Below, piece after piece: positions 12,648 through 59,190 of a DNA stretch of 64,000 bases. Under the pieces are notes generated by a model, which searched no databases, was not told where the DNA came from, and worked only from the letters and a program-made list of their open reading frames with translations. Numbering within the stretch: position 1 is the stretch's first letter; every line of letters starts with the position of its first letter. The stretch is from NCBI RefSeq assembly GCF_009914755.1, contig NC_060926.1. The stretch is one strand, 5' to 3'. The DNA is from the human T2T-CHM13v2.0 reference genome, Homo sapiens. The translations under genes were made by a program, and so were the position numbers.

Positions 12648-13289
12648 GCAAGTGATATCTGCTCCTAGTGACACTCTTGTATGCAGGGCCATGGGTGACT
12701 GCAGGTTGGCTATGCGGCTGGCTACTGATGTTCACACTTAGTCAACTGTACCCAAGCTACTTGCCGGACGCTCTCTCCTGAGATCCCGACTGGGGGCGGA
12801 AAGAGCAAGCAGCTCAGAAGCCATCCAGAATTTTCAACTCATTTTTGGGGTGACCTGGGGAGAAATGTTGGCATGCTTCATCCCTTAATCTTCTTTTCCA
12901 GATGTTGCTCATCTGCACAGCGTGGGACTGAGCACTGTGGGATATTCAATCTGCACCAGTGTTCTCTCCCTAAACATCAAATGTCTCTTCTAGCCATGCT
13001 CCACCCCTGCTCCTATCCCCCTTGCCTTCCATCCTTCAGCTCATTTTGCCTGCACAGAACACGACAGCCATGAATTCTGCTGCATCTCTCTCAAATAGGA
13101 GAACAGAAGTGTTTTCACCAGCTCAACCCTCCTCACTGCAACCCTGTGCAAAACACCACATCCCCCACTCCCACTTTCAGGCTCTGCTCACACCGACCTC
13201 TGTGCCCAGGTAGAGAGCACCAGCAAAAGGCTCACAACAACACAGGTAGGAGGCACTAGACAACCAGGCCTCCCAAAAAAGTTGAAAAA

Positions 13290-24125: not shown

Positions 24126-24603
<478 letters not shown>

Positions 24604-24996
24604 CTTCATATTGTTTTTTAAGAAAAAAATATAAAAATGCTGTCTTTGATCTTTTTTTAACAAGCAATTTTATGTATATTGGCAAAAAATAAAAAGGTAG
24701 AAAAAAGGCAACAGGAGAAATAAGAAGGAAAAGGAGGAGGAAAAAGAGGATGACAAGAGGAGAAATGGTTTGGGATGAGACAAAAAAGGAAGCGTAAAAG
24801 TTAACATAGAAACTGACCTCATTCAGAGAGACCCTAGAGGAAGACACAGCCTCCCTTTGGACTCAGATGCTTATTGCATAGAATATTTTAAAAGCAATTG
24901 GAGAAATTAAAGGGAAAAGGTGCTTTGGTCCCAGACTTTCACTATTCCATGGAGCACCATCCTTTAACTCTGGGAAAAGTTGCTCTTACCTTGTTA

Positions 24997-25316
<320 letters not shown>

Positions 25317-28130: not shown

Positions 28131-31100
28131 TATTTACAAACATCCTCAGCATGACAAGGATTGAACAAGATTATAGTTTTATTTTGTTTGTAATATGCTG
28201 TCCCTTTTCTGTCCTGTCCTGATACATGTAAATGGCACTAAAACAGAGTGGCCCTCTCCAGGGCCGCTGGCATGATCAATGCTTTCACAGATTTAAAAAA
28301 TGGAAGCTGAGCCCCAAAATCTAATTGCATAGAAAGCATTTGCGCAGGGATTGCATCCAGTGAGAAGCATCAGGGACATACTATTTTGGTACACTCAAAG
28401 ACACACTTTTAAAATCAATATTTTAAAAGTCATATCAGAAGTAAGATAAACCAGGCTGCTATCTCAACCCTCCGTGTGTACTCTGTACATGATGTCTCTC
28501 TCACCGCTGAGAAAAGCTATGCGTAACAACAGGAAACTGATCACAGATCCCAACATCAGCCCCGGTGACTGTAAGTAGAAAATACAATGAGTAATTCCCC
28601 TGAAAATGAGATGACTGAAGTTGATTATGTATTTGTTGTTTAAAAATAAAAAAGAGTCGACAAGAATGGGAGTGGGGTGGGGAGTTTTCCACGTTAACAG
28701 AAATGGCAAGTTTTATTTTTAAAATTTATCTGTAAATACAAAACAAGTGATAAAGACACCATGTGTCATTTGTTTTTGTACAGCAAGGAACTACATGCAG
28801 CTTGCTAATTTTCTCAATTTGTATGCTACAAGGTGAACTGCAGCATCACAAAAATTAATTTCCTAGCCAAGCAAATATGAAATATGAATTTCATAGGTAG
28901 GCTTTTATAAAATATTAAGTTATGGGCAAGCCAATATAAAATATTGATGTCATACAGTATGAGCAAATATGGAGATAAAAATCGCTGACCCAGATTATGA
29001 ATTGTTGATTAAAGAGCATTGTTTACCAGTTTGTAAGTATATCAGCAAAATGTATGTGTGGGCATATGACAGTTCTAATTTGAAATATAATTCTAAATCA
29101 TATTTACCTTTGATCTGAAAATACCTGATAGTGTGAAAAAACTAAGGCTTGACAGCCAAAACAGTACAAAAGTCAAATGCTGCATTTTAATTCAGAAGTG
29201 GGCAAATGTCAACTTGTTTTAATTTCTGAAACCTCTCCTTTTGGGGTTATTGTTACACATTTGATATTGAAAAGAAATTGAGGTTAATCAACCAATATTA
29301 TTTCTCTTTTTTAGAAGCCTCAGAAAGTTTGCATATATACATATATGTGCTATAAGAATATACAAGTGTATATAAAAACATAAAATATTACAATAAAGAA
29401 GAAAATTCATTACAGACTTCCTAGGGAAAAGGGAAAAAATCATGTAGAAAAGCAAATCTTGATTTGGCATAATTAATTGTAGGGTTTCTTAATTGTGTGG
29501 AGGGAAAGGTTGGAGGAGTAAATATGTATCTGTATTTACAGAAGAGAATGGATCTTTCAAGCCAACAACCCAACAGTAAAGTTCTAAAATTACACCACCC
29601 AAGTCCTCTACTGTTTCCTTCTTTTGGACAAAAGCAAATATTGACCAGGTGCCAGCCTCGAGCCATTTGAGGCAAAGGCAGCCGTTGCGATGGGCAAAGC
29701 CACAGCCTGGCCACACCGGGCCAGGCTCCACGTCCAAACCCGCTTGCATCGTAGAATTTTGAAATTAACAAGTCACCAGACCACACACCAAGCAAGGAGT
29801 AATCACTTCACAGAGAGAAAATAACTATGTTTAAAATGAAAGCAAGATCAACACTGGCCTAAATGCTGGTAAAATGACCTTGAGGGATGTTCCAAATTGA
29901 AACGGATCAAATTAGTTTTCAATCCACTCTAAAATATGAAATGTCAAAAATAAAAATATGCTGATGAGGCTCAGCGCGCTGAAGTTTTAAAATGACTAAA
30001 ACGACATCTGTCATGGAAATCCCTGCAATTTTACAAGAGAATAAGAAAGGCTATTTTAAACGGTGCTTAGTCACGTTGCATTTTTTTGGTAGTAATGTCC
30101 AAACTTTCCTGTCCCGGTGGCAGAACCCATGAGCATGACCTCCACAGGACTCTGGGGGAATGGGGGTGGGCAAGTTCCAAAAATACCACTCACAGCTCAC
30201 AAATGACGGCTGGTCAACTCACATTTGACTGTGAAAGCCACAGTGCAGGAGCGAGGACGGACTAAAATGTCTACAGGAGAAGGTAGGGTGTTGTGTTCTA
30301 GAAACCCTGGCAGCTGTGGGTGAGCACAGAATTTTCTAATGAGTAAGACTGAAATCAGTGAAAATGCCTCAGCATTAAAGGGAAAAATAACTTATCTGCT
30401 GTCTAACCACGGAGCTCAGGCATCTAAGAAAAGCCTAAATAATTCACGAAAACTGTGCCCAAATAGACAAAAGGAGCTCACTGCTTCTTGCAGAATATTT
30501 AAACCTGACTCAACTTTGGGGTTTTAATCCAAATATCTTAAGTTCACATTTCATTGCTGGAACATTCCATGTTGTATCAGGAGCTGACTTAGGTGGGTGA
30601 AGTTCTTAACCCTGAACAGAGAATAAAATGTTAAAAATAGTAATGAGAGTGCCGATACCTCCATAGACAACCCTAAAATGTGTAATGTGTTCATGAAACA
30701 CACTGCTCACCGTCTAAAGGAAAGGTGGTTAATCCTGGGCAATTCAGGTTTCTTTGCAGCTACGCCATGGAAGGTCCCTTAAATGCAAGACTCAGCATGG
30801 AAACCTCTTTCACTCTGGAATCCTTCTCCAGAACTTGGGTGAAGGTTCACACACTTACATCTACCCCCATGCTTCCCCAAAAGGGCTAAACCCAGAAAAG
30901 CCTTTCCCGGATGTCTAATTGGTGACAGCCTATTATGCCCAAGGGGTTTACTTTTCTCCAGGTGCAGAATAACAGAGGAGAGATTTGTTTACTCTCTCCC
31001 TTTTTTTTTTTTTTTTTTTTTTTGACATTAACAACTTTGTTTAATGGCCTGGGAGCTTGAGCCGGTCAGATCCCTAGAGCAGGGTCCACACACTCAGCCC

Positions 31101-33929
31101 TGGACTTTCTCCCACCTATTCCAACCCAGCCTCACACTCCCATAACTGCATTCCTAGCCTTTTCTTCCCGTTTTTAACACTGTGCTTCACCTAGTAATCA
31201 ACATAAAAACAAAGCAGATAGAAGGACAGGCCTAGGTCAGGCAACCATCTGGGGTAATGCAGGTGTCACAGCCACAGGCCAGGCTTGACTGGCACAGGTC
31301 TGGGGAGCCTGGGGGCAGCCTGGGTGGGTGTGAATTAACAGCCTGGAGGTGGTGGGAGGGGGCATTCTGTGTGCCTCTGGGGAGGGGCGGAGGTGAGGTG
31401 TTCTCTTTGTCAGGGACCCTTGGATCTGCTGGGGACAGAGCCTGCCCAACTCCCTCCTAAGCAACTTCTGTTTCCTCTGCTCTCCCTTCCTGCAACCTGC
31501 ACTCCTGCTTCCTGCCTGGCACTACCAACTGTGGGAAACCCAAGTAGGTGGCACCATAGTGGGGGGCAAAAGGCAAAGCCTTGGTTGGGTAGGGGGCATA
31601 ACTCCAGGCCTAGTTCTGCAAGCCCTGACACTGAGGCAGGATGCTTACAGAGGAGACAAAAAAGCAATGCAGTGCCTCGAATAACAACTGGGGTGCCCCC
31701 ACACTGCCACTGACAACTGCCCCTCAATAACTAGTACACCCTAGTCTTTCTAGCTTCTGGGCACTCCTAGAAACCAGAGCTTCCAAACCCTTCAGTTCAC
31801 ACAGGCCAGGACTTGCTGAGGGCAGGGGGCGGGGGAGGAGGTGAGGGTTGCTTTCAGGAGTATCTGTTCTTGCTCCCATAATCTTGGAGTGGATCACAAA
31901 ACTGAGTAAGTGTTGCTATGGTTATTAAAGTCATTCCTTTTAAAAAAGAGCAAAACATGGCAGATTTTCTTAACAACTTGTTCAAATGGCAACAGTCCCG
32001 GGTTGTAGCTAATTAAGTGTGCTAAAGATAAACACAAGATCGCACATTCCTATTAAGATTGTTTGCTCCTGGTTCTTTTACACACACACACACACCACTT
32101 TGAACATTCAGGGGAAATAATAAATTCTTATGCACTCAGCATGAGGAGTAAAGAAGAAAAATATATTTTCCATAGAAATCGCCTTACTTCACCTCCTTTA
32201 AATTCTACAACTTGGTTCAGGACAAATAAAGAGGAAACTACTGGAATGTGTGAGCAGGCCCCACTAGCTCTGAAGGCAGAGGCCTCAGCAGGAGGTGAGC
32301 AGCTGCAGAGAGGCTCAGGCAGGCGGCCCTGGGCAGCCTCATTTCTTTATTAACACCACCACCTACAGGGACTGCTTTGAATAGGATGGTGTGGTGTGGC
32401 CCATAAAGCCTTGCAAGAAAAACAACATTCAGAACAATTGCACCACATTTTTTTTTCAACTTCCTGTTTATTAGTATTTTATCTAAGAGCAGAACAAAAG
32501 TCTGTATAAATGGGAGAAAATAAAACAAATGAATGCACTGTTAAGGCCTATTCACAATGCACACATACAACAACTTGTCAAGTGCATTATGTCTTTCAAT
32601 TGAACCCACCTCCGACCTTCAAATGTCTCTGATGACAGAGATCAAGAGGAAATAAATGGAATTTGTTATTTTATAAGAATTATATATAATTAATTTTTAA
32701 AAAAATAAGTAAATGGGCTTGTTTTCGGCACAACTGTATGACAGTATTCCTTGCCACACTGTACAAGTCAACATCTTATCAGTAAGAATTGGTATTTTGC
32801 TAGAAATACGCATGAATATAATGAAAATGCAAATGTCCCCCTAATGTTTGGTGCAGAGCTTGATTGTGTAAGAAAAGGAAGAAAGTATGTGGTCAAGGTG
32901 TGGGCAACCTTTGAGGTTCTCAGCCTAAGAGGTGGACAAAGGGCTGGTGACGCCTCCACTGGAATCCTTCCAGCGAAGTCATGAGGTCATTACGAAATTG
33001 TTAGTGATGTCTGTGAACTCTGCTTTTCTTCCTTAACCTGCCTGCCATGTTGTTCTTTGGGCTTCTTCTCTGCCTACTTTTCGAAAGGCTCAGGGCCAAT
33101 GAGATGGAATGAATGAGTGGCCATAGGGCTTCCAGTGTTGACCTTGATGGCCACATTTTCTCCTGAAAGCAGCCCGTACAGTCTGTTTTTGTGGATACTT
33201 GTGAATCAAAGGGCTGGGCCTTGGCACAGTTCCCTAGGACCCTTGCTCTTTTTTATCTATGGTTATAAATACCACTGAGTCTCATTTATTTTGAGTAGTT
33301 TTAATGTCATGTTTCCCTATTTGAGAAGGACACCTAGACATTTGGGATTATCAACTTGGGGAATTGCCTAAGATTTTTTTTCTATGCCCTAGTAATCAGG
33401 AATTTTGTTATTATTTACTCTCCATATCTCAGTCTCCTATGACATTAGCACGTATGGCCTTGTCTAATTATTCCTGATACCTATTACCTCGTTCACATGA
33501 AAATAAGAAGTCAGTAAGAAGAGGCCTCCTCTTGTTTAGCGTAACAAGAAACATATCTGCAGATAGAGACAGCATAAATCAAAGCTGAAATGTGAACTTA
33601 GCACTGGTCAAGACCAGTTAAGCTAATCAGAAACAGATTGCAAATGCTCTAGCAGAACAAATACTGTCTTTCTAAATGGCTGAAAGTGCTGTGAGGGACT
33701 AAAACTGAACAGAACAATCACAACAAACAACAAAGGTCACCAAATAATAAAGCAGCCATCATTTGTGTGCTGGTAGTAAACACTGAGAACTCACTGCATG
33801 TGTCTTGGACATGGGAGATGAAGAAATGTGGGGTTGGTTTTGTTTTGCCAAGGGGCATTGATTAACCCTAACCAGTAGTCAGATCTAGGAAGGGGACCCT
33901 TCCTGGAGAGAACGTCTCTATGGAATTCA

Positions 33930-34480: not shown

Positions 34481-34602
34481 TGTGGCATTCTTGACTGGCA
34501 AACATAGAGGAAGCTTTAACCACTAACTTCTGCTAAGGGAGGAACTGTTCCTTGGGCATAAGAGTAGACAAAACATTTTATCAGCATCAGAAAGTATTTT
34601 GG

Positions 34603-34930
<328 letters not shown>

Positions 34931-35439
34931 GCAAGCATTTTTGAAGCCACTCACTGACTTCACTGATAGGATGCACAGAATAAGTCAGAAAGGCAAAGCT
35001 CCCGAGTCTGCTTCACAGAAAGGAAATGTGCATGCACGAAATAAGAAGTCTTTCTCAAACACAAACAAACAAAAAGCAACTCCCTGTGCTGATAAGGAAG
35101 GAGCTAGATGCTGGGAACCAGGAGCTGGGGCTGCTGGGAGGACGGGGGAACAGGCATGAGGGCAGGTGTCTGAATAGGAACTGTTCTGCCGCCATCTCAC
35201 ACAGGGGATGGAGTGATGGGCATGATGCCTAATTTGCAAGGGGTGATCTTGAAAGCCACTGAGATCCCTCTCCCAGGAAGCTTACAAAAGGAAGAGCGAG
35301 TGTGACAAATAAGTGAGAGGTGTCTACTTGCAAGTCAACAAATGCCTCCTTTGCACACCAATATGCTTAAATTTAGTGGGTCACCTATGTCACTGAGTAA
35401 AACCTAGTGGACATCCTAGTGCCCCATTAGCAAGCTTCA

Positions 35440-36167
<728 letters not shown>

Positions 36168-37890
36168 AACCAAACAACTCTTAATTAAATCAGAAATGCC
36201 TTTGCAATTATATACTACCCACCCCTAAAGAAGAAGGTTTTTACAAGTGTAGACGACTCCTCCTTCATATCGCCCTCAGTATTATGCAACAGTCCATCCC
36301 ATTGAACTAAAGTCACAGAAACGTATATACCAAAAGATCCAATAAAATGGAGTGAAATGCAGCTCTCTTAGTGCATCTGCTCCTTAGCATTCTGAGAGAT
36401 CCTACTCCCAGTGATACTACCCCAGGCTGTCAAGGCGGGTCCCTCAGATTGTCTTTTATAATTGCACAACAATTATAAGGAATATTAAAATGGAAGTTAA
36501 AGCATCCAGAAAGAAAACCAGATTAAATGACTGAAACAACAGAGGACTAAGTAATGACAAGAGATGGCATAATATCATCATTAGGCCTCCTTCCATTTTT
36601 AACGTTATTTCTCATTCAGCTTTTTTACAAGACACAAATTTCTTTAACTCAAGGAATTTATTTTGCTTCAGGCTCAGTGTTCTTTCCTGCAGAATCTGAC
36701 CAACTAGGATAGAATAATGCTTGAAGAGCTCTGGATTTTTATATTATAACAAATAATTATGTATAGGTTTCTTGACATTACTGATTTCTCACTGAGGTTC
36801 AGAATAGCTCAGCATACATAATAAGGGGTTTTAAGAGGTGTTCACCCTGAGTACACTTAGAAATAACATCCAACTTGGATCAAAGTGTACTTTTTTAAAA
36901 AGTTCTTGATACTATAAGCTTTGATTTGCTTCACAGAAACACCTCTAACTATAAGGGCAACTGCTGAGGTTTGACAGTTCATCTGCCCTGATCTTTCATT
37001 CATTCATTCATCATTGTGCAGCACTGAGTTTAAATAAAAAGAGCCATGTTATTGGGCTTAGAATTTAACGTGAAACCCCCATCCATGCAAGCTAAGGGCC
37101 AAGGAAGGAATGCCAGCTAGCCTCCTACAGGCAGTGGCTGAAGAGCTGAAAAAACCTAGTGGCCAAGTCAGGCCACGGAGTTCGTTGAGCCTCTGCTGCC
37201 CATGGGCCTCCCCGTTCCTGGCATCCTGGGTCAATGGATGGATTCTGACTGTGGAGGCCCCCAGTTCAGCCTCTTTTCATACCCCTGGGGGTTATCTGCA
37301 GTGCTGCAGCCCCTTGGTGGGAGCCTCCTTCTTGCACTGGGGACACCCTGGTCCCCCTAAAATCCCACATACCCTGTGGAACTCCAGGGGGGGGATTCTG
37401 AATTCCTTAGACACCAGCTCGTTCACTCTCATTTTACAGGTGAAGGGAGCTACTCTCTGTCCAAGCAGATCAGGGCCTCCATGGGCTTGCCTCCCAGGCA
37501 GAATTCCAATTTCCTGGTCCATCAGAGGTCCTCACCTGCTCCTCTAGGAGAGAACCCTGATATAAAAGGGAGGAAAGATTCCCCTCCATGTTTCCAGTGC
37601 TCATTGGTTATCACTAGCCACAGTCAAGCCTTCTTATGACTCCCAGTCCCATCTGACTTGCTCAGAGCTCTGGAGCCTAACATCCCAGTCTTCCTGAAAC
37701 ACTGCTTAAGCCATGGGATTTTCCTGCTCGAGGACCCACAGAGCTCCCTACTGGCTCCAACACAGAGTTGACATTCTTTGCCCAGGCTGAGAAAGACCTC
37801 TGTGGTTTGCTCCTACCCTAAGTATGCAACATTTCCCTCTTCTCATGAATCTCTTTGTGCTTTTATTCAACAAAAATATGTTGAGCACTG

Positions 37891-38382
37891 GATTATTAGT
37901 TTGCTTGAGCTACTATAACAAAGTATTAGAGACTGACAACAGAAATGTATTGTCTCACAGCTCTGATGGCTGGAAGTCTGAGACCAAGTTGTTGGCAGGG
38001 TGGTTTCTTCTGAGGCCTCCCTCTCTCCTTGGCTTGTAGATGACCACCTACTTGCTATGTTGTCACGTGGGTCTTCCCTCTGTGTATGTCTATATCCTAA
38101 TCTCCTTTTTTTTTCTTTTTCTTTTATTATACTTTAAGTTCTAGGGTACATGTGCACAATGTGCAGGTTTGTTACATATGTATACGTGTGCCATGTTGGT
38201 GTGCTCTTAATCTCCTTTTATAAGGACACCAGTCATATTGAATTAGAGGCCACCCATATGACCTCATTTTACCTTAATTACCTCTTCAGAGACCCTTTCT
38301 CCAAATACGGTCACATTCCAAGGTACTGGAGTTGGGGTGGCACCATACAAATTTGGGATGGGACACAATTCAGCCCTTAACA
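37891..38382 (-). mobile_element. MLT1 (MaLR) LTR
   Basis: tattagtttgct...tctcacagctctgatggctggaagtctgagaccaag...ggacacaattcagcccttaaca. Confidence 0.85.
38106..38205 (-). mobile_element. Very short 5'-truncated L1PA 3' end nested in MLT1
   Basis: ttattatactttaagttctagggtacatgtgcacaatgtgcaggtttgttacatatg...; TSD taatctcctttt on both sides. Confidence 0.9.
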
Positions 38383-39122
38383 AGTCCCAATATGATGCCA
38401 GGGAATGGGGAAGGGAGGAGAAAAAGGGACATAGAAGGGGACAGAGATGGATAAAACATGGCCTCTGCCCTCAGCAGATGAAACTCTACTGTTCACACAG
38501 GAGGACGGCGTGATTTTCTCCTTGCCCACCCCAGCCCCAGCTCCTGCCTCTGTTGGGCAGCCTCTGATGCTTCACTTCCTCCTCTATCTAATCAGTCTTT
38601 CAAGGCACAGCCTCATTCCCTTTCTCAGGAGCACCCCCCTACTGGCTTACACTCCCTGAGTCCCTCCTGGACTTCCCTCAAGCGTATCACCTCCTCCCTG
38701 TGCTATCCTGACCACCCTGTGAACTTCTCCATGGAGCAGCTACCTGGATGTCTAGTGCAAGGCTGGGCATGGTAGACATCAAGCCAATATTTCCTTCTCA
38801 TGGGATAAAACATGTTTCTCCTTTCTGCTTTCTGTCTGATAAAAGCCAGCAAACGGCACTGGGGGTGTCTGGTTCCTCCACCACTTGTCTGCGTCTTTCA
38901 GATAAATATTACCTATTTCATCGTGTTCTGAAATGCAAAACCTTTCTAGTATCAGTAAGTGAAATCCCCAATCAGCATACCATGATGAAATATTCTTCTA
39001 AGTCTCATATTTTTACTCACTTTACGCCCAGAGTTACGTGTGTGAGAGGTGACATTTTACTGTGTGGGACAGGAATGCCATCCTCACTGATGTTAACCAT
39101 GTCACACTGGAATGACATCTCA

Positions 39123-45481: not shown

Positions 45482-46266
<785 letters not shown>

Positions 46267-46554
46267 AAGAGACTGACATTGTGTGGGGCAACTGAAGCCC
46301 AGGAGAGGGTGGAGAGTATGAAATGGCATCCAGGTGATGAGAACTGAGTTCTGTTTCTGCCCAGTGACCGGCAGTCCAGCAGTTGGGAGCTGAGCTCTAA
46401 GAATCACCACCACAAACTTCTCAGGAGTCCATAAGACACCAGCAATTCTGGTGGCTTAAAGGGCTAGAAGGTGGCTCCGTAAACCCTGAACCTTGTATTT
46501 ACCTTTGACAAGATTCTAAGATAGATTGCCACAAACATGCTTTAGAAAACCTTA

Positions 46555-47220
<666 letters not shown>

Positions 47221-47899: not shown

Positions 47900-48050
47900 A
47901 CTAGCAGCAGCCTCTGAGACAGGCATTATGGTTACCTCCATCCTACAGATGAAGACATTGAGGCTTAGGGATGCAAACTGAATTGCCCAAAGTTACATGA
48001 CCAGTAAGTGGTAGGCTAGTTCAAACCCTGATCTCTGGGACTCCAGTGAC
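47900..48050 (-). mobile_element. MIR
   Basis: cagcctctgagacaggcattat...acagatgaagacattgaggcttag...ttgcccaaagttaca. Confidence 0.75.
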
Positions 48051-48230
48051 AAAAGAACCAGTAGTCTCAGGGGAAAGGCCAAGTGGGTTGTATTTACCAC
48101 CATAAAACCAAAAAAAAGTCTGAAAGAGAGACCTAAGTTTTTCGTTTAGATAGTTTTTATCTCCACTTGGTCTCACCTTAGTAAATTTCACATGAATAGA
48201 ACATGTGGGTGGAATTACGATCAAAAATTA

Positions 48231-48605
<375 letters not shown>

Positions 48606-49229
48606 TCAGGCCAAAATACCACCAAAGACAGCCAACCCTTTGGAGGATGAGCGTATACAATTTAGTCTGAAAGGTGCATGGGAAAAAAGCCACAGAAGGT
48701 GGGCCAGATGGATATCTTCTGGTGATAATGTCAGAGCCACAGGTTGAACCAGAAGCCCAAGCCTGGGAGAATGAAGTATGTCTACAGAATGACTAGGTCT
48801 CAGTAAGGAGGGCCAAAACTGGCCTAGCCGACTCCAAGGGCTCTGACTGAGGTGTCAGAGGTACAGACAGGTGAGGCTGCCCTTATGATGGGAATGTTGG
48901 ATCCTGCCCACAAAACTGGGAGCTCCCTTGTTCCCAAAGCAGGAGAATCACATTCCACATACTTGCAATTGTTGACTACTGGTCAGAATCGTTGAAAACA
49001 AAAAGTGTATTGTTTGAAACCAAAAATAGATTTGATGCACCTGCTAGCAAAATACTAAATTTTTGTAGCTGCCAGATGTAAAGCACAGAATCAGCAATGA
49101 AGAATGCAAAGGGGAGCATACTGTGTCTCTATAATTGAGCATGATGACAATAATTGGCCAGACATTTCACATTTCACCTAACCACTTGCTGCACAATTTA
49201 TCCATGGGTGAAATAAATGGAAGTGGGTC

Positions 49230-49533
49230 TTTTTGTTTTATTTTATTTTTTAAGTAACACAATCTTGCTTTGTTGCCCAGGCTGGAGGGCAGTGGCATGA
49301 TCATAGCTCACTGTAACCTCAAACTTCTGGGCTCAAGCGACCCTCCCACCTCAGTCCCCCAAGCAGCTAGGACTACAGGTGTGCACCACTGTATCTGGCC
49401 AAGTTTGTGTGTGTGTGTATTTTTTTTTATAGATAGAGTCTGGCTATGTTGCCCAGGCTGGTCTCAAACTCCTGGGCTCAAGTGATCCTCCCACAGTGCT
49501 GGGATTATAGGCATGAGCCACTGCGTCCAGCCC
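49230..49533 (-). mobile_element. AluJ SINE
   Basis: catgatcatagctcactgtaacctcaaacttctgggctcaagcg... Confidence 0.9.
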
Positions 49534-49570
49534 AGAAATGGGTATTTTAAACGTATTACGAAAAACAAAT

Positions 49571-49949
49571 TGTTATGGGTGGAGATGTGTCCCCTGCAAA
49601 TTCATATGTTGAAATCTTAACCTCTAGCACCCCAGAATGTGACTGTATTTGGACATATGGCCTTTAAAGAAGTAAAGTAAAATGAGATAATTACTTTAGG
49701 CCCTAATCCAATTTGACTGGCCCTACTAGGAAATGGAAATCAGGACACAGACATGAGCACATACAGAGAAAAGACTGTGCCAGGAGCAAGCTGCCATCTG
49801 CAAGCCAAGGAGAGAGCTCTCAGAAAAAAACGATCTTGCCGACACCTTCCTTTTGCACTTCCAGCCTCCAGGACTGTAAGAAAAGAAATTTCTGTTGTTT
49901 AAGCCACCAAGTAGTATTTCGTTATAGCAGTCCAAGCAAACTAATGCAC
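49571..49949 (+). mobile_element. MLT1 (MLT1B-like) LTR
   Basis: tgttatgggtgg...aattcatatgttgaaatcttaacc...cagcctccaggactgtaagaaaagaaatttctgttgtttaagccacc...gcaaactaatgca. Confidence 0.88.
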
Positions 49950-50340
49950 ATATCAAAACTACTTTAGTTTTTCCACTTTGTTGCAAACAATTGCAAGGTG
50001 TCCAGGTTTTCTGTCTTCCCCCAGCCTGCAAGTGCTCAGAGGACACCCAACCCTATGATCTCAGCCAACTCATGAAGTTTGATTTCACAACTTAGTGATG
50101 TCTTCCCAGTGGAATCCTAAATGATAAGGAAAATGGTATAGAGCCAAGACTTGAACATTAACAACCCAGGAGCACAGAAACAGCACAGTTAGCTGAGAGG
50201 CGTTATGGAGAGAAGCAACTGAATGCACACTGAGCGCTGTGAGAAGTCCACGACAGTGGGGAACAGCGCCCACCGTCACAAAAAGAAAGACCCTCGGCAG
50301 GTACTTTAGAGTCACGTTCATGCTGTAATATGTGGGGAAG

Positions 50341-51895
50341 AAAGACTATTCCAAATGGATCTGGCTCTTTAAAACAAGGGAATTTTCCTTGCTCTTGGGA
50401 ACCAGCAAAATCCAGCTGCTCATTGAACTGCCTGTCTGGAATCTCACAAATTTGCACCTTGAAGTTGTTAATAAAGGACTAAGTTGATAATTCAAACAAA
50501 CCCTGTGGTTTGGAAGTCACTGTTTTTCTGCTTAGCGTTCGACTTTCAAGCTCTTCTTTTGGAATAGCTCTTCAGGGCATTCTATGGATGTGTAATAAAC
50601 CGACAAATTCCTTGTGAGAAGTTTTAGAAACTGTCAGGTGAAATGAGCCAGGTGCGAGGGCCCAGATGGCTCAAAGCTGAAGCAATGAGGGCTCTTTTCA
50701 CTGTAGCTTCTAAATGGGCTCCCAGGGTACACCCCCACACACCAAAAATTTTCAGCCATGTTTTGGTAGAAGAGTGTGTCATCCTGAGGGTGGTACCACG
50801 AGGGACCACATCATTTGCATATTTATGTCACAGCAGGCCTGATCCACACAAACTCCTGTCGCTTACCGAGTTGTGCACCTTTACCTCCATGTGCTCACTG
50901 GGCAGCTGGAAGACACACAGTGAACCTCTTGTGCTCTCAGCCTTGGTTTGCTGACCTCCATGCCTTTGCACATGCTGACCCCCGCTCCACACACCCGGAC
51001 CACCACTGCACATCCAAACCCACCTGCCTCTCAGGGCCTTGTCCAAATGCTGCCTCCTTCATGAGCACCCATAGTGAGTCCAAGGCAAGTCCCTGTCCCT
51101 CCCTAAACTCCAGGTCACGTCACCCCAAGTCATCTTCATCAATTTCCCTTCCTTTTTTATATCCCCATTGCTTAGATCTTGCTTTTATGGCATGGCTGTA
51201 AGTGGTTTCCACTGGGATGCCTTTCTAGTTCACCTCTGTGTCCTCATCAATTCGGCGCTGAATTATATACCTGTGATTTTTTTTCACTTCCTTTCAATGT
51301 CATTACTTTCTAATTGCAAAGCAGAAACATTCCTAGTAGTATATTCCAAAGCACACTGTCATTTGGTGTTCTTTATAATGTACAGTGACTATCACGTTTG
51401 CCCTTCCAAGCCCTAAAATCTTTCCACTCATCTCTTCTGCTTATATGCCTTGATGCAAGAGGGGTTAAAGTTTCATGCATAAAATGTCTGCACTAGAGGG
51501 CACACTAGAGCATGTCCATGCATAAATGTGAACACATATAAATGTGTGCATGGGATGAGGCAAGAAGACGGGGATAGTAGAGAGAACAGAGGCTGGCTGA
51601 ATCTCCTCGGGAGATGATCTGGAGGAGCTGCATTTAATCCAAACATAAAGCCTTGGTCTAGGAAGTGATCTTCTTCAAAGGCTCTTAGTCTCGTGCATGA
51701 ACATGAAGCAGCAGAACCTGTGACTTCCAAACCACAGGGCCGTTTAAATTATCTCCTGTTCCTTTATTAACAATGTCAGCATGCAAATTTGTGAGATTTC
51801 AGGACATACAATTCAGGGAGTAGTGGAATTTGTGGGTACCAAATAGCAAGAAGTTTCCTTGTTTTAAAAGAACCAGATCAACTGGAATATTCTTT
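50341..51895. repeat. Diverged non-Alu inverted repeat (arms ~50341-50540 and ~51699-51895)
   Basis: Reverse complement of the left arm aligns by eye to the right arm, with exact blocks gtgacttccaaaccacaggg, tcctttattaacaa, tgcaaatttgtgagatt and ccttgttttaaa. Confidence 0.9.
50950..51250 (+). mobile_element. L2 3'-region fragment (in the inverted-repeat spacer)
   Basis: gcctttgcacatgctg...tcagggccttgtccaaatgctgcctccttcatgagc pattern. Confidence 0.5.
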
Positions 51896-52613
51896 ATTAA
51901 TTATATATTACCTAATACTATCTGGGAGTGCAGCTATTGACCAGCGATGGCAAGCTGTCCATCACGGGCAGTGAAAGGGCCTGGCTGGGCCGCCTGTTTC
52001 TCCATGGCTGCCAGAGACATTGGCCCTGGTCACTTACACGATCTCCACGTGTATAGCCCAGCAGAGGAGCTGGCCACACTGCAGTGGCTGCAGGAGCATG
52101 CAGGTGTCTCCATTTGTTATTGGTGGCTACTTAGCCAACATATACTTGGGGGAAGGAGGGGGAGTCCCCCAGAGGTGCTTCACCAATTCCGTAATAACAG
52201 TTCTGCTCTGTAACACTCTTAATGCTTGGGCGAGAGAAACTGCTGCCACCCCATGCCCACCTTCACACGTGTCACGTTTTTCTGGCCCATCTGCACAGGC
52301 AGGGGCCCAGGTGTTGCCATCTGTTCTGAATTCTCAAAATGTCAGTGTAATATGGGCAGCCTAGAGTTTCACAATTCAGCCAGTTATTCACCCTGCCACG
52401 TCTGTCTTGATTGTGGCTCTCATGTGTCCATTCTGCTGCTGCCTCCCACAAGCCAGGTCCTTTCCTTCCAGGCCACACCAAGATCCATGCTGAAAGTGAC
52501 TTCTAGGAGGGCTACAAATCTCCAGTGTTTCTTCACTTCAATTCTTCCCACCAAGTCATTATTCTAAAGCTGCACATTGATCATTCCATACTTTGCTCAA
52601 AAACTCTAAGCAG

Positions 52614-52641
52614 CACACACACACATGTGCACAGACACACA

Positions 52642-52676
<35 letters not shown>
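52614..52676. repeat. (CA)n microsatellite
   Basis: Interrupted CA run read directly. Confidence 0.95.
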
Positions 52677-52678
<2 letters not shown>

Positions 52679-54481
52679 CCCTGCAGGTGGAAGACCCAAC
52701 CCAACACTGTGATCTGACAGTTGGGACTCTACACACATGTCCCCAGCCTCCTGCTCCACCGCAGCTTGCCTGAGCCAGTGAGCCCAGATGTGCCACAGGC
52801 ACCTGCACTCCGCCTCTGACCATGCCACTCCTCCATTTGTAATTATTTTCCCATTTTAAAAATTTCAATCCAATGTCACTTATCTTCTGCCTATAGTAAT
52901 TTATTGCTTCTAATCTTCTACAATATTCATATGTTTTGTCCTCAAAACATTTGTGTTTTTTGGAAGCCTGGTCCCATGAAATTCTCTAAGAAAAAAACAG
53001 AAAGTTCCACCATCATCTACATTTAACATATACCACAAATGTTATGCTGTTTCACATATTTTCAAAACACATATTTGGATATTTAAAATGCACGACCAAA
53101 GGCTCTGAGAAGTCTTGCAGATTTTTAGAAAAAGATGTTTCTCTTGGGTCAACCTGGCTTTTCCCATGCTATATTTATTTGACTGTACACCCTTTGGGGA
53201 CACAGTATTTATAATGGTCTCCTCCACTCACTGGCACCCCCTGACCTCCAGTGCTCCCTTTACAGGCATCACCACATTACGAACAACTGACCCACAGGTC
53301 ACCTGAACATAAAAACAGTACAGAGGAAGTGATAGCAAACTTTCTGCTCCTTATGGGGCAACTGCAGCTGGATGTGCTGGGTATTTCATCTCTGAAGCCA
53401 TCATGTTGGTTGAGCTCCCAGATTCTGTAAGCTCTGACCTCAGTGAGCTCACCTTGGCTGGAGCCTGATCTGTACAATCCAGGACTTGTTTGGGAGCTGT
53501 GGGTTTAGGAGAGTTTGGGTGGGAACATGGGTGGGATGGGCATCATGGCCCCCTGGTGCTTTCTTTACAACTAGACAGTAAGTTTCTCCCAGGTAGGGTG
53601 CTTCTTTGCATTATTGGCCTGAGCCTAAGGTCCTCACAGTGATAGAAATGCACCTCTGATTATTCTCTCTGAGTCCCTGAATGCTGAGACCAGGCTGATA
53701 CCCAGTACAGGGAGGACCCTAAGGTTGCAGGATATGAGTGGTGAGAGAAGAACCCTGGAGAAACTCAGTTTCTCAATCCCAAGAGATCCCAGGGATGGGT
53801 GGATAAATTGGAAAGGCTGCCCAACAGCCCCACTCCACAGAGCATGCCTTAAATTAAGACAGAGTGTTCTCCTGCAACTAGTCCTTCATGGCCCCTGACC
53901 TCTTAGTTCTGGGAACCAAGTGGAATAAGTGTCATCAGTCTGGTGGAGCAGGCAGGCCTCCTGCTGGCAGCCTGCCCTCTCTGTGGACCCTTCCAGGACA
54001 GAGAACACAGCCCAAGCACAGCAAGCCATGGGGCTGGAGGCTCCATGGTATCAGAATCTCATCACATATTCTATCCTTGACCCTTCATTTCTTTAAGTTG
54101 CTTTGAAGCCACATTTCATATATCAGGACCTGCTGTTTACATAAAGCAGTGGTGGAGAGTCCCATTCATCAAAGGCAACTGCATGTCATTTGGCGCTGGC
54201 CCTGCCTTGTGGCAGAGGCCCCCTAGAGACCTATGCTAGGTGACTAGAAGCATCTTCTGGGCTCAGCAGGAAAGGGGCTAAGGCCCACCAATACCCAGAC
54301 CTGCATGTCCAGAGACAGTGTCAAATTTGACCTGAAATATTAAGAGTTTAATGCCTTCTTGTTTTACAGTTTTAAAGGGGCAATTTCTGACATTCTTGTT
54401 TTTAATAAAAAGGAAGAGAAAAGCACAGAGTTTTAAATTATGTAATTACAAAGCGGTGCAAAATGAACATGTGCGGCCTTT

Positions 54482-54600
54482 GTTCAAAAGCCATTAAGAA
54501 TTTTAAGATGGTAACAGCAGGGCATTAAACCAAGCCAGGCCCTTCTGCGCAGGGGAGGCCCTAAGCGACTGCACAGCGCGCACACCTGTGAGGCCGGCCG
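54482..54600 (-). mobile_element. MER91A-like hAT-Tip100 fragment
   Basis: tgttcaaaa...ttaagaattttaagatgg...gcattaaaccaag...gactgcacag...tgaggccggcc. Confidence 0.65.
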
Positions 54601-55399
54601 AGCAGATATCAACATCGGCCACGGGTCCGACAGGGAGAGTGCCAGGGACTTCATGGTCTCACTGTAAGGCCTGCAAGGTGGCAAGACAGAAGTACAGCAT
54701 CCTGGAAAGACTTCCTTGAAAAGAGGCTCTCAGCCCAGCCCTCGGTGCCCTCCCAGATTCCCACGCTCTTGGGGTTTGGGCCGACTTGGCAGCCTCTAAT
54801 CGTTTGATTTGACTCAAGCGCCACACTTGGTGGGTTCAGTCTCCTTCTTGTAGGTTGTGTCCATTCCTACTCTTGAGATTATTTTCATCAATCTGTTTTG
54901 TTTTTGGCCCCAATCAGGCCTATTTTTTATTTGGGTTGCTTGTCTACATTTCACACTCAAGGTCAAACTTTCTCAATATGCAGATACTAAAACGTGATTC
55001 TCCGGGGGCCCTGCCTGGCCTGGCCTGGCCTGTGCTCAGCCCTGGTTGTCTGTCTTTCCCTGAGCTGACCACACCCTGGATCCATTTATGCCGAGGCTCT
55101 CTGAAGCTCACCTCCTGAAATCTCTCGGCTGCTCCGGCCCCAGTGGCCCTCCACTGCGTTCACTGTCCGCTGGTTCCCGTTATCAGGTCCTGACTCCTTC
55201 CTGTTTCTGGCCCATATTCTCTAAAAGCTCTGAGCTCCATTCCTCTGCCTCTTTGCCCTGAAGTCACATGGGAGACGGAAAGACACAGACGTTGTGTCAA
55301 AGCTCTACCCAATCCCACATTCCAACTGGAAACTGCCCATTTGACACCTCCCCAACACATAAAACTTATCAACTTAAATATCATAATTTCAGCAGGAAA

Positions 55400-55780
55400 A
55401 AAGTGAATGACTTAATAAATAGTCTGGGAAAATTTGCTACACATTTAGGGTAAAATGAAACTCCCTTACTTCAAATTATAAACAAAAATAAGTTCTACTT
55501 GACTTGACATTTTAAACCAAAAATAAAATTACTAAGTATCAGAAGAAAAAAATCTGAGGATATTTTTCGAATCTAGGGGTAGGAACAGACTTTCTAAGCA
55601 AGACAAAACCTGGGTGTTAAAAGGAAAATAATAACTACTTAAAAGTTAAATAGTTCCATAATATAAACGACACAGTAAAGAAAGTTAAGACAGGTTGAGA
55701 GAAAGTATTTGCAGCATATATATCAAAGTCTTAAAATCCAGGATATTAGAAAAGTTCCCCCAGAACAACAATAAAAAAAA
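55400..55780 (+). mobile_element. Old L1M ORF2/3' fragment
   Basis: A-rich, with ctaggggtaggaacagactttctaagcaagac and gagaaagtatttgcagcatatatatc motifs. Confidence 0.6.
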
Positions 55781-57682
55781 GGAAGAAAAGGAGAAGGAAG
55801 AAAGGAACGAAGGGAGGGAGGGAGGGGAAAGGGAAGAGACAGAGGGAATAAAGGAGGGAGGGAGGGGAAAAGAGGGCAAAAAATATAAGGAGGCAATTTA
55901 TAAAAGAGCAATAGGTCTTCTTAAACCAATCTTCCCCAGAGCAAATATATATAAAATCAGTATTTCTGGAGGCTGAGCTTAATCCTTTACTTTTTTTCAG
56001 TGCTTAGCTACAATTTTATTGGATTTTTACCATAAAACTAACTCTTCAGCAAAGAGGGCACATTTTAAATAGACCTTCTAAATGCAGAGTTCTTCTGAGT
56101 TATGAATGACTGCAAGGTAGCATGACTACAAAAATTGTTCTAAACAACATTATTCTAAATTATTCTGCATGATTATTATATTATTCTAACAACTATATTA
56201 TTCCAAATTTTAAAGGAGATTAATTATGGGAGAGATGGTTTACGCAATTACCAAATACACAGAGAGGACAGGATTGGGAGGAAATATGCCTGATTGGGAA
56301 CAGTGGGTAACTCTAGTGGTAGGAATGTCGGTGGTGAGTTTTATTTTCTTCCTTGTCTTTTCTTCTAAACCCCTGCACCTGGCATCAAGACAGGCAGTGC
56401 CACCTGGGCACCAGCAGAGCCCTCCTCTGTCCTGGGGCAGCCGACCCTCAGGGGCACCTCTGCTCCCAGGGTGTCTTTCACCTGGGGCTTTTATATTTTC
56501 TTCAGATATTGCCTTAAAGAAACATGCTATTCATATCCTACAGACATTTTTTTTACATGGTTTTTGCGTTGCTTCAAATAATGTCCTCAATTTTACAATA
56601 AGAGGATTATTTAAAATTTTAAAAGCTGACACTCGTAGCAAACTACTGTGACCTGTGGTGCCTGCATCCCCTGCCCGGCCACTAGGTTGTCCCGGTTAGA
56701 GTCCAAATGCCCCCCAGCTGCCTGCTCACATTTCTGAGGTGGGCAGGGATCCATGGGCCGCTCTTTGGCCCACTCCCGTGCACGTGGGATGTCCACAGCT
56801 GGGACACCTGTGCGTGGGCACCCGCCCTGCAGGTCGCCTCCAGATCTGAGTCCTCACTCCTCCGCCTCTTGACTTTGAAGTCAAGGTTTCACTCTCTTGA
56901 CGAATACTCACTGCTTAAGGCTACCCTTGCTACTAAAATAACTTTCCATGAAATACTCTGAAAGAAGCTTCTTGACTGTAAATGCCATTATATTATCAGA
57001 AATGCCATGTTTGTGTGCGGTTATGTCTTGTGTAACTGACTCCACCGGATTTTCGAGGTGAAGATTGCTCGTTTTTGTCATTTCCAAAACCCAACATTCT
57101 TTCACTATAATGTGGCAACTTCTCAGTTCTTTAAACTATTTTTTTCTTTAAGTTCTTATGAATTGATGGTTCCTGTTTTTCTGAACTGTGTGTTGAACCC
57201 GTGCTTCTGCTAGGTTCAGAGTCACCTTTGTTCAATAACTAGCAAATGAGGCAAAAAGGTCTCACATAAAATGTGACTTTGTGGCCACTTGGGAGCCTCC
57301 ATCTCCTCTCTTTGTAAATTTTAATTTGAAGAGACGAGTGTGAACCTCAAAGGAGGGAAAGGGAGCGGGAAAATGGCAATGTGGGTGAAAGTTCCATGTT
57401 CGGGCGAGGTTCTCTGTGTGAGGTGAGACTGTGCTGTCCTGCTCACATGGGAACCATGGCTCGGCCGCCAACCTCGCATGGAGTACAGGGACCCACACAG
57501 AGACACACTCTGTAGCCCACCAGAGCACGGATCCCATCCCATATAAAGATGAAATGAGTCTTTTTGTTTTTTTCTTTTTAGCACATGTAAAGACCAAATT
57601 TTTCTTTTGAACCTCGATTTTCTTTTGAACCTTGATTTAACTTTTAGGAAAAGTGAAAACAAAAGGAGAATATTGTATTCAC

Positions 57683-57828
57683 CCAAATAAAAAATGATTT
57701 CCTGCGTCCAGGTTGACTGCTCATCCATTAGCAGCAGATGTCTCTCGAGTAGCTGAACCACACCAAGCTGGACCTGGGACTTGAGGAGCCCCCTTCAACC
57801 TCTGCCAGGACGCACGCTGGATTAGCAT
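57683..57828 (-). ncRNA. MIR4435-2HG: Internal exon of MIR4435-2HG/CYTOR, ~146 nt
   Basis: Acceptor ...gccctagcag|ATGCTAATCC (NAGNAG) at the edge of an MLT1 LTR; donor TTTGG|gtgaat. Position fits a recalled exon ~15 kb from the TSS. Confidence 0.6.
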
Positions 57829-58231
57829 CTGCTAGGGCTGCCGTAAGAAAGTACCAAAAAATAAGTGGCTTAAACAATAAAATATTGTCTCACAGTTCTG
57901 AAGGCTGGAAGTCTGAGATCACAGTGCCCACTGGGCCAGGCTACCTCCAAAGGGAAGGCTATGTTCCAGCCTCTCTCTCGGCTTCTGGTGGTGTAGCTGT
58001 TTAAGTCCAGTCTTCACATGGTGCACTCCCTGAGTGTGTGTCTGTCTTGAAATTTCCCCTTCTTATAAGGACACCAGTGATATGGGATCAGGGGCCCACC
58101 CGACTCCAGCATGACCTCATTTGAACTAATTACATCGGCAATGGCACTATTTCCAAATAAGGTCACGTCTGAGCTGCCAGGGGCAAGGACGTCCACATGT
58201 GAATTTTGGGAGACACAAGTCAACCCATCAC
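57820..58231 (-). mobile_element. MLT1 (MaLR) LTR
   Basis: attagcatctgctagggctgccgtaag...tctcacagttctgaaggctggaagtctgagatc...gacacaagtcaacccatcaca. Confidence 0.88.
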
Positions 58232-59190
58232 ACACAGAGGCCCTAAAGGATGAATCACACACGTCTGGACTCCTACTCACTTTCTTAGTCGTGTCTTCTA
58301 CCAGTCCTCTTTCCCCAAACTCGTTCCCCTGAAAGCAAGTTGCCTTCCCACTAAGAACAGACCATTTGCTTTCTTTCCCTTCAGTGTCAGTGTCTATGCT
58401 AAGGAGAAGGTTGTTTAAAAAGCAGCTCAAAATCCACCAGACTCCTCAGGAAGTGCCTCTCAGGGAGGCCTCTAGACGGGGCTGCTGTGCCTCAGTAGCC
58501 TCAGTAAAGACCTCCCTCCAGCTGCCCTGTGTCTCCTGACTCCCGGGCTTTGTGATTCTAACCTCATGGGTGATCTGAGGGTAAACCCCAGGAAGTCCTG
58601 TAGGTCCCAGGGCTGTTCCTGTGAGGACAGCTGTCCCCTGCACGCGCGTGGGGTGCCGTGTGCTCCTGAGGAGCCGGCTGGGGCAGGCAGGGCCCAGTGA
58701 CACCTGGGCTGGAACTGTGGCTCCCCCACTTGTTTGCTGGCTCTGCTTCCTCTTTAAGAAACGAGGATGATCATGTAGGGTTCCTAAGGGGGTTAAAGTG
58801 TGTGAACTCCTTAGAGGCGCACGTAGCCCAGAGGAGAAACATAAGTCAGCCTCAGCTCCTCACGGTGCCTTCGGCCACAGACAGCATTTGCCTTCACCAG
58901 GCTTCTTTTTAAAACAATTCTTGACTTGGAAAGGGTCCTTGGGAAAAATTAAAATTTTTAAAATAAATAAATAAAATCTGAGGTTAATTCTTTTGAAGAT
59001 CCAATCTCCATTTCCTCATCCATCTGTTTTGTAAATACAATCTGGTGTCCAGGCGACTCTGAGGGACTGGGACCCTCCTGAATCACACAGCGTCCAAGTC
59101 ACTCACTGCTCTCATTTCTGGCTATCAGATTGTTCCCCGGGGGAATGGAGTCTCCGCCCCTGGGAGCTCAGTTCGAAACCACGGCTGACC

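What the first reader, a model, noticed from the sequence alone, without database searches (positions are those of the whole stretch)
50341..51895. Ancient non-Alu long inverted repeat able to form an intronic dsRNA stem
Seen: the reverse complement of 50341-50540 (...gtgacttccaaaccacagggtttgtttgaattatcaacttagtcctttattaacaacttcaaggtgcaaatttgtgagattccag...cccttgttttaaagagccagatccatttggaatagtcttt) aligns with 51699-51895 (...gtgacttccaaaccacagggccgtttaaattatctcctgttcctttattaacaatgtcagcatgcaaatttgtgagatttcagg...tccttgttttaaaagaaccagatcaactggaatattcttt). Identity is roughly 70-75% by eye, with exact 12-20 bp blocks and weaker similarity continuing outward (~50240/~51975). The ~1.16 kb spacer appears to hold an L2 piece, which would make the palindrome very old. 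I do not recognise the arms as a common repeat. Inference: either the long TIRs of an ancient palindromic DNA transposon or a local inverted duplication. The patchy exact blocks hint at selection on pairing or on duplicated TF sites; it sits between two lncRNA exons.
Basis: seen in the sequence. Interest (0 to 1): 0.7.

Follow-up and report, generated by a model that had tools for sequence, protein, structure and literature searches.

The report
Old local inverted copy in intron
A 215-base stretch of human DNA has a flipped, 76%-identical copy 1.2 kb away inside a long non-coding RNA intron; it is likely a one-off copying accident tens of millions of years old that is predicted to fold into an RNA stem but shows no significant sign of being kept by selection, so it is probably ordinary.

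Summary
The inverted repeat is real: 50325-50540 vs 51699-51911, 167 of 219 columns identical (76%), 1,158-bp spacer. The reported outward similarity is not there. Genome-wide, the arm was found only here and in the 99%-identical CYTOR segmental-duplication twin. No TIR/TSD ends and no transposase remnant were found, so it is unlikely to be a transposon. Size and spacing fit the known class of short local inverted duplications (under 1 kb, within 5 kb; PMC4617611). An 8-bp junction word hints that the left arm is the inserted copy (post hoc P about 0.02). Divergence (K80 0.24) matches the oldest Alu pairs in the window, so roughly 40-80 My rather than L2 age. A stem of about 175 bp is predicted on either strand. 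Exact blocks (P 0.06-0.21), G-U strand bias (p 0.52) and duplex energy do not exceed neutral decay, and a nearby Alu pair is far stronger. Cross-species conservation and editing could not be tested. Verdict: an ordinary, probably neutral, fixed inverted duplication.

The parts
50325..50540 (+). Left arm (216 bp); likely the inserted copy. May extend to about 50551 if a short insertion near its inner end is allowed
   Evidence: direction inferred from junction words
51699..51911 (-). Right arm (213 bp), reverse complement of the left arm; likely the template
50541..51698 (.). Spacer, 1,158 bp, no internal symmetry, no Pfam family above cut-off
50316..50324 (+). Junction word just outside the left arm; its first 8 bases equal the reverse complement of 51695-51702; candidate microhomology / duplicated target
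   Evidence: empirical P 0.023, chosen after the fact
50545..50552 (+). Near-copy (7 of 8) of 50317-50324 just inside the left arm; candidate second copy of the target site
   Evidence: not independent of arm homology
51695..51702 (-). 8-bp word at the inner end of the right arm, identical to the word outside the left arm
50946..51053 (+). Degraded piece of a dispersed repeat, L2-like (name recalled); pre-existing spacer content, extent uncertain
   Evidence: 19-mer shared with 9 other loci vs 0 control; profile hit that includes the motif; flanks alone give no hit
50501..50520 (+). Longest exact block (20 bp; partner 51720-51739); holds RUNX-like and GGAAGT words (motifs recalled)

Best explanation
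This is likely a single short inverted duplication, probably made by a replication or repair template switch roughly 40-80 million years ago, that has since likely decayed neutrally; transcription through it is predicted to fold an incidental RNA stem of about 175 base pairs. SHOWN: two inverted arms of 216 and 213 bp, 76% identical, 1,158 bp apart, with no similarity beyond the arms and no other copy detected in the genome except the CYTOR twin. INFERRED: a nascent strand left its template at about 50324, copied about 215 bases of the opposite strand 1.2-1.6 kb downstream (51911 to about 51695), and returned through an 8-base microhomology, re-copying about 9 bases of the target; the left arm would thus be the newcomer. 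INFERRED: afterwards both arms mutated independently (about 0.12 substitutions per site each), and the whole structure was much later copied to 2p11 with the 200-kb segmental duplication. PREDICTED: in MIR4435-2HG/CYTOR pre-RNA (and the predicted antisense LOC124906065) the arms can pair transiently and may be lightly edited by ADAR, with no function, as one of many weaker stems among stronger inverted-Alu stems.
For: Geometry equals the published class: 54% of 229 sequenced inversion sites were inverted duplications, in nearly all cases under 1 kb and inserted within 5 kb of the other copy (PMC4617611, passages). Three DNA searches returned only the four arm copies. A 35-place motif of shared letters with up to 3 mismatches gave 4 hits, all own or twin, control 0. 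A 20-mer with up to 2 mismatches gave 16 hits vs control 8, and none of the 12 foreign hits aligns along the arm. A third motif gave 3 hits, all own or twin. Calculated sensitivity excludes about 5 or more other copies at 15% divergence, 10 at 20% and 27 at 25%. Homology edges are sharp. Junction word P 0.023. Neutral simulation reproduces identity, run lengths and ts/tv within P 0.06-0.21. G-U-compatible differences are 13 on + vs 9 on -, p 0.52. Duplex energy of -215/-210 kcal/mol is matched or beaten by 67-97% of neutral copies at the same identity. Twin substitutions are 3 of 429 in the arms vs 41 of 5204 outside, p 1.0, low power.
Against: No other species could be examined, so neither the empty ancestral site nor neutrality is shown directly. 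Differences are mildly clustered (35 match runs vs 39.9 expected, P about 0.05; top-four run sum P 0.059) and transitions are somewhat few (22 of 43; P 0.10 in simulation, 0.02-0.15 by binomial). These are borderline and would also fit weak constraint or gene conversion. The junction word was noticed after the fact, and there is no clear microhomology at the other junction. DNA search sensitivity to very old repeats is limited and no Dfam library was available.
Confidence: 0.72

Rival explanations
1. Same local duplication, but the arms have been kept partly by selection as an RNA stem (ADAR substrate, or a bridge affecting splicing or intronic polyadenylation of MIR4435-2HG/CYTOR).
For: Ensemble folding puts about 174 (+) and 169 (-) pairs between the arms. 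Length and energy exceed the medians for edited non-repetitive dsRNAs (144 bp, -185 kcal/mol; PMC11838218 Table 1). Borderline clustering of differences. Both host genes are transcribed (PMC7011539 passages).
Against: No strand bias for G-U. Duplex no stronger than neutral. About 82% paired and a longest helix of 20 bp, against medians of 87.5% and 30 bp for edited non-repetitive dsRNAs. An Alu pair about 0.8 kb upstream gives -344/-371 and another -521/-548. MIR4435-2HG and CYTOR are not significantly enriched in dsRNA capture in the two genotypes seen, and neither name occurs in a 48,656-row hyper-editing table (PMC13171160 supplements; gene-level, low expression, weak). No Rfam match in the arms.
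Confidence: 0.07
2. The duplication copied a small cis-regulatory module (RUNX-like, GGAAGT, octamer-like and AATAAA words), and both copies are kept as DNA elements, which explains the exact blocks.
For: The 20-bp exact block holds RUNX-like and GGAAGT words in both arms; AATAAA lies in the 14-bp block; an octamer is in the right arm (motifs recalled).
Against: Such words occur 0.03-0.36 times per arm length in this window and were picked after the fact. The octamer is broken in the left arm. The RefSeq enhancers in the hub table lie at 13228-14356 and 30656-32124, not here. The blocks are not significantly longer than neutral.
Confidence: 0.07
3. The arms are imperfect long terminal inverted repeats of a rare, old non-autonomous DNA transposon of about 1.59 kb, or two inverted fragments of a low-copy ancient repeat.
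For: Symmetric layout; arms of a size seen in long-TIR elements (recalled); searches cannot exclude a family more than 25% diverged with fewer than about 27 copies.
Against: No other arm copy. No TA, TTAA or 8-10-bp TSD next to complementary termini: the 8-9-bp candidates have 2 mismatches and sit at non-matching termini. 0 of 14 reading frames match a transposase family. Two independent copies only 0.24 apart imply a family young enough to be found.
Confidence: 0.1
4. The duplication is much older (eutherian ancestor or earlier), and occasional gene conversion or template switching between the arms refreshed patches of identity.
For: Mild clustering of differences; conversion of near-perfect into perfect inverted repeats by template switching is described (PMC7954356 passages).
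Against: Clustering is not significant; that mechanism is described for tens to hundreds of nucleotides, and the spacer here is 1,158 bp; LTR-like and Alu pairs in the window show comparable run lengths.
Confidence: 0.04

Closest known systems
Short local inverted duplications ('Inverted Dup' class of Sudmant et al. 2015, PMC4617611)
   Same: Duplicated stretch under 1 kb (about 215 bp), inverted, inserted within 5 kb (1.16 kb) of the other copy, no sign of retrotransposition; replication-error origin proposed for the class.
   Different: The published cases are present-day polymorphisms. This one is old (K80 0.24) and present in both segmental-duplication copies; its empty allele was not seen.
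Four-point template-switch events (Walker et al. 2021, PMC7954356)
   Same: Reverse-complement insertion from a nearby template leaving an inverted repeat; events whose return point precedes the exit point are described, which would duplicate a few target bases as suggested here.
   Different: Those events use templates tens to hundreds of bases away and are recent; here the template is 1.2-1.6 kb away and the event is old.
Non-repetitive predicted dsRNAs of dsRNAscan (PMC11838218)
   Same: Non-Alu arms, loop about 1.2 kb (median 1,407 nt for unedited), predicted duplex. About 497,000 such predictions exist, 4,597 of them edited.
   Different: Longer and more stable than the median of either group, but less paired than the edited ones. 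Whether this locus is listed, edited or conserved there was not seen.
Inverted Alu pairs (IRAlus)
   Same: Intronic arms of 200-300 bp within a few kb that can form dsRNA.
   Different: These arms are not Alu and not a dispersed repeat, and the duplex is weaker (-215 vs -344 to -548 kcal/mol for two pairs in this window).
Long-TIR DNA transposons and MITEs (MULE, hAT, TcMar; recalled)
   Same: Long imperfect inverted ends around a spacer of about 1 kb.
   Different: No family copies, no TSD, no recognisable termini, no transposase remnant.

Membership tests
Short local inverted duplication | Duplicated stretch under 1 kb, in inverted orientation | tested here: met
   216 and 213 bp, opposite strands
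Short local inverted duplication | Inserted within 5 kb of the other copy | tested here: met
   1,158-bp spacer
Short local inverted duplication | Source is local, not a dispersed element | tested here: met
   only own and twin copies, within the stated sensitivity
Short local inverted duplication | Junction microhomology or target duplication | tested here: inconclusive
   8-bp word at one junction, P 0.023 post hoc; none clear at the other
Short local inverted duplication | Ancestral allele with a single copy | not testable with these tools
   no other mammalian genome is held; the twin has both arms
Long-TIR DNA transposon | Dispersed copies elsewhere in the genome | tested here: not met
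   a small family more than 25% diverged is not excluded
Long-TIR DNA transposon | Target-site duplication flanking complementary termini | tested here: not met
Long-TIR DNA transposon | Transposase remnant or match to a Dfam consensus | tested here: inconclusive
   0 of 14 frames match a transposase in Pfam; non-autonomous elements need none; Dfam is not available
Selected (conserved) dsRNA | Arms predicted to pair in a transcript | tested here: met
   about 170-175 pairs on either strand; intronic or exonic per hub annotation
Selected (conserved) dsRNA | Pairing better than neutral decay at the same identity; strand bias of G-U pairs | tested here: not met
Selected (conserved) dsRNA | Cross-species conservation and covariation | not testable with these tools
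   no multi-species alignment
Selected (conserved) dsRNA | A-to-I editing or crosslink evidence on both arms | tested here: inconclusive
   gene names absent from one hyper-editing table and from the 5 supplements of another paper; REDIportal and PARIS not available
Rfam RNA family | Match to a covariance model | tested here: not met
   12 matches at E<=1 in 48000-58500, none in the arms, none above gathering score

The most novel reading that the evidence does not exclude
A one-off template-switch duplication created, de novo, a non-Alu stem of about 175 bp (or a mirrored RUNX/ETS/poly(A) module) in the first long intron of MORRBID/MIR4435-2HG. It has been kept by selection since early primates and now acts in both MORRBID and CYTOR, for example by tuning intronic polyadenylation, splicing or ADAR editing: a datable birth of a long regulatory dsRNA from unique DNA.
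Probability: 0.07. Interest if true: 0.55.

Novelty: new member of a known kind. Interest (0 to 1): 0.13.

Why it matters
Most likely it matters little: it is an old example of a common mutation class, and about half a million non-repetitive dsRNAs are predicted genome-wide (PMC11838218). It is a tidy fossil with a possible junction signature, and it could serve as a test case for dating template-switch duplications. If conservation or editing were shown, it would be a rare dated case of a long non-Alu regulatory stem arising from unique DNA in an immune- and cancer-relevant lncRNA pair.

Tried and rejected
Outward and inward extension of the arms: none. Dispersed family: three DNA and three motif searches found only own and twin copies. 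Of the 12 foreign 20-mer hits, 11 had flank scores under the 95% shuffle level and 1 (L021) slightly above it, as expected from 12 tries. A two-arm profile over 127 kb of held sequence found only the seeded motifs and a weak self-hit, E 0.03. TIR/TSD scan: negative. Coding origin: 0 of 14 frames above a Pfam cut-off, best E 0.02 to unrelated families; mismatch periodicity was uninformative. Rfam: only Alu-derived and chance matches. The left arm alone does not fold better than shuffles, z -0.06. L2 confirmation from flanks failed: no hit was reported for the real flanks. The bacterial promoter/terminator scan is irrelevant to human DNA and was not used. A genome-wide rate for such non-repeat inverted pairs was not measured. 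In the 127 kb held, 13 of the 14 inverted matches within 5 kb in the window were Alu-like and 1 was this one; among 21 other 3-kb loci, one non-Alu pair (L028) and one TA-rich palindrome (L039) were seen. Literature: searches gave listings only, and no title or abstract start described this repeat; I did not open those papers except PMC7011539 and the 2026 preprint (passages), and closed journals are not searched. The per-locus tables of PMC11838218 were not seen and could list this stem.

Full report
OBSERVATION. Self-comparison of the window finds the pair 50325-50533 / 51911-51706 at 76.9% over 212 columns, E 1e-31. The local score is 148 against a maximum of 36 in 300 shuffles; a lenient matrix extends the arms to 50325-50540 and 51699-51911. 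A global alignment of these gives 167 matches, 43 mismatches and 9 gap columns in 219, with exact runs of 20, 17, 14 and 12. The spacer is 1,158 bp. Beyond the arms there is nothing: six outer 50-nt blocks score like shuffles (p 0.31-0.97), the first inner block is marginal (p 0.05, it contains the last 16 arm bases), and the outer and inner local alignments have p 0.25 and 0.52. The repeat is real; the outward tail is not.

CONTEXT. By the hub annotation the repeat is 21.0-22.6 kb from the 5' end of MIR4435-2HG, in an intron (- strand), and inside exon 2 of the predicted antisense model LOC124906065, whose short intron has canonical GT/AG ends. No RefSeq enhancer overlaps it. PMC7011539 (passages) describes a 200-kb duplication of this locus that gave CYTOR and places it in the human lineage; a 2026 preprint (10.64898/2026.06.24.734157, passages) calls it primate-specific and ties function to the spliced two-exon RNA. 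The twin copy of the repeat at chr2:87.488-87.490 Mb differs by 3 of 429 arm bases and 41 of 5204 flank bases (p 1.0, little power).

IS IT A REPEAT FAMILY? DNA searches with the left arm, the right arm and 2.65 kb around them returned only the arms here and in the twin; the tool warns that this search misses diverged copies. I therefore used motifs of letters shared by both arms. A 35-place motif with up to 3 mismatches gave 4 hits, all own or twin, control 0. The 20-bp block with up to 2 mismatches gave 16 hits against 8 for the reversed control, and none of the 12 foreign hits aligns along the arm. A third motif, exact, gave 3 hits, all own or twin. With assumed indel losses these searches would have seen a family of 2, 5, 10 or 27 further copies at 10, 15, 20 or 25% divergence with 95% probability. 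No TA, TTAA or 8-10-bp duplication sits next to complementary termini, and 0 of 14 reading frames over arms and spacer match a transposase family. A very old, low-copy repeat underlying the source arm cannot be excluded without Dfam.

SPACER AND AGE. A 19-mer at 50959-50977 recurs exactly at 9 other places against 0 for the control; their downstream letters resemble the L2 3' region as I recall it. A profile including the motif hits 50946-51053 (circular), but profiles from the flanks alone reported no hit. So an L2-like piece is plausible, not confirmed, and it would not date a duplication laid across it. The arms are K80 0.237 apart (95% 0.167-0.319, CpG columns excluded). Five of 8 Alu pairs measured are 0.226-0.316 apart (the other three 0.063-0.176) and 3 of 3 LTR-like pairs are 0.21-0.34. 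At a recalled rate near 2e-9 per site per year this is about 40-80 My. Conversion between the arms would make it look younger.

MECHANISM. PMC4617611 (passages) reports that 54% of 229 sequenced inversion sites were inverted duplications, nearly all under 1 kb and within 5 kb of the other copy, not typically tied to retrotransposition and possibly due to replication errors. This locus has that geometry. One junction detail fits a template switch with a microhomology-guided return. The 8 bases at 50316-50323, just outside the left arm, equal the reverse complement of 51695-51702 at the inner end of the right arm, and 50545-50552 repeats 50317-50324 at 7 of 8. Random 20-mers give an exact 8-mer in any of the four outer-inner comparisons in 2.3% of draws and both features in 0.15%. 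However, the pattern was noticed after the fact, and the second feature can also be read as an extension of arm homology. I take it as a hint that the left arm is the insert. PMC7954356 (passages) describes switch events whose return point precedes the exit point, at shorter range.

RNA STEM. Folding 50200-52050 gives 176 (+) and 173 (-) arm-to-arm pairs in the minimum-energy structure and 174 and 169 in the ensemble, with longest helices of 20 bp and duplex energies of -215 and -210 kcal/mol; two Alu pairs nearby give -344/-371 and -521/-548. This is what any 76%-identical inverted copy would do. In PMC11838218 (passages, Table 1 and section 12) 497,429 non-repetitive dsRNAs are predicted and 4,597 are edited (median 144 bp, 87.5% paired, 30 contiguous bp, -185 kcal/mol); only about 1,500 of 5.1 million are conserved. 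This stem is long enough for some editing to be plausible. Its tables were not seen.

SELECTION TESTS. G-U-compatible differences: 13 on +, 9 on -, p 0.52. In 1,023 of 1,500 neutral simulations that fell at 73-79% identity, P was 0.21 for a run of 20 or more, 0.11 for four runs of 12 or more, 0.059 for the top-four sum and 0.10 for the low transition share. The number of match runs is 35 against 39.9 expected, P about 0.05; 1 of 8 Alu pairs was more clustered (P 0.02). Neutral copies at the same identity pair as well or better in 67-97% of 150 draws per setting. So there is at most a borderline hint of patchiness, and pairing strength argues against selection for a stem. External data are weak. 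In PMC13171160 (supplements; several files cut, one too large) neither gene is significantly enriched in dsRNA capture in the two genotypes shown, and neither name is in the uncut hyper-editing table. CYTOR dsRNA signal does rise in ADAR1 knockout, along with its total RNA. PMC12695637's 5 supplements do not name the genes. No Rfam family matches the arms. The RUNX-like, GGAAGT, octamer and AATAAA words (recalled) occur 0.03-0.36 times per arm length in the window and are leads only.

VERDICT. A real, old, local inverted duplication of DNA not found elsewhere in the genome, a new member of a known class, most likely neutral (0.72). Rivals: rare transposon 0.10, selected stem 0.07, duplicated cis-element 0.07, older duplication with conversion 0.04. 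Literature searches (listings) showed no description of this repeat. Cross-species alignment is the decisive missing test. Interest 0.13.

Noticed in passing
window 50470-50475 (+) and 51768-51763 (-): Each arm carries AATAAA followed about 25 nt later by a GT-rich stretch, pointing inwards, so each strand meets a poly(A)-site-like layout (recalled) in its first arm; no annotated 3' end here; AATAAA is common in the window (108 sites).
   Followed up: partly
window 45771-46865, 34598-36174, 24308-25317, 48239-49532 and others: 13 inverted Alu-like matches within 5 kb in this window; the 45771-46075/46561-46865 pair has a predicted duplex of -521/-548 kcal/mol, far stronger than the finding.
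   Followed up: partly
window about 49560-49945, 37895-38383, 57865-58166: Old LTR-like pieces resembling MLT1 (name recalled), 70-74% alike pairwise. The splice donor of predicted LOC124906065 (49876) lies in one, and the model's 3' end (57894) lies at the edge of another.
   Followed up: partly
L028:1633-1721 and 2204-2293: A non-Alu inverted pair, 90 bp at 92% identity, 480 bp apart; possibly L1-derived (recalled) or a younger inverted duplication.
   Followed up: no
L039:4-639: A TA-rich low-complexity palindrome of about 630 bp.
   Followed up: no
window about 50376-50392: A small 7-bp hairpin inside the left arm, probably the source of a weak self-hit of the arm profile.
   Followed up: no
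G000:C2:87485983-87491629 (L010): The CYTOR twin differs from the window by 44 substitutions in 5,633 aligned bases (0.8%), in line with a recent duplication; reads from this repeat will multi-map.
   Followed up: yes
window 52614-52676 and about 46980-47032: (CA)n and (TG)n tracts in opposite orientation 5.6 kb apart.
   Followed up: no
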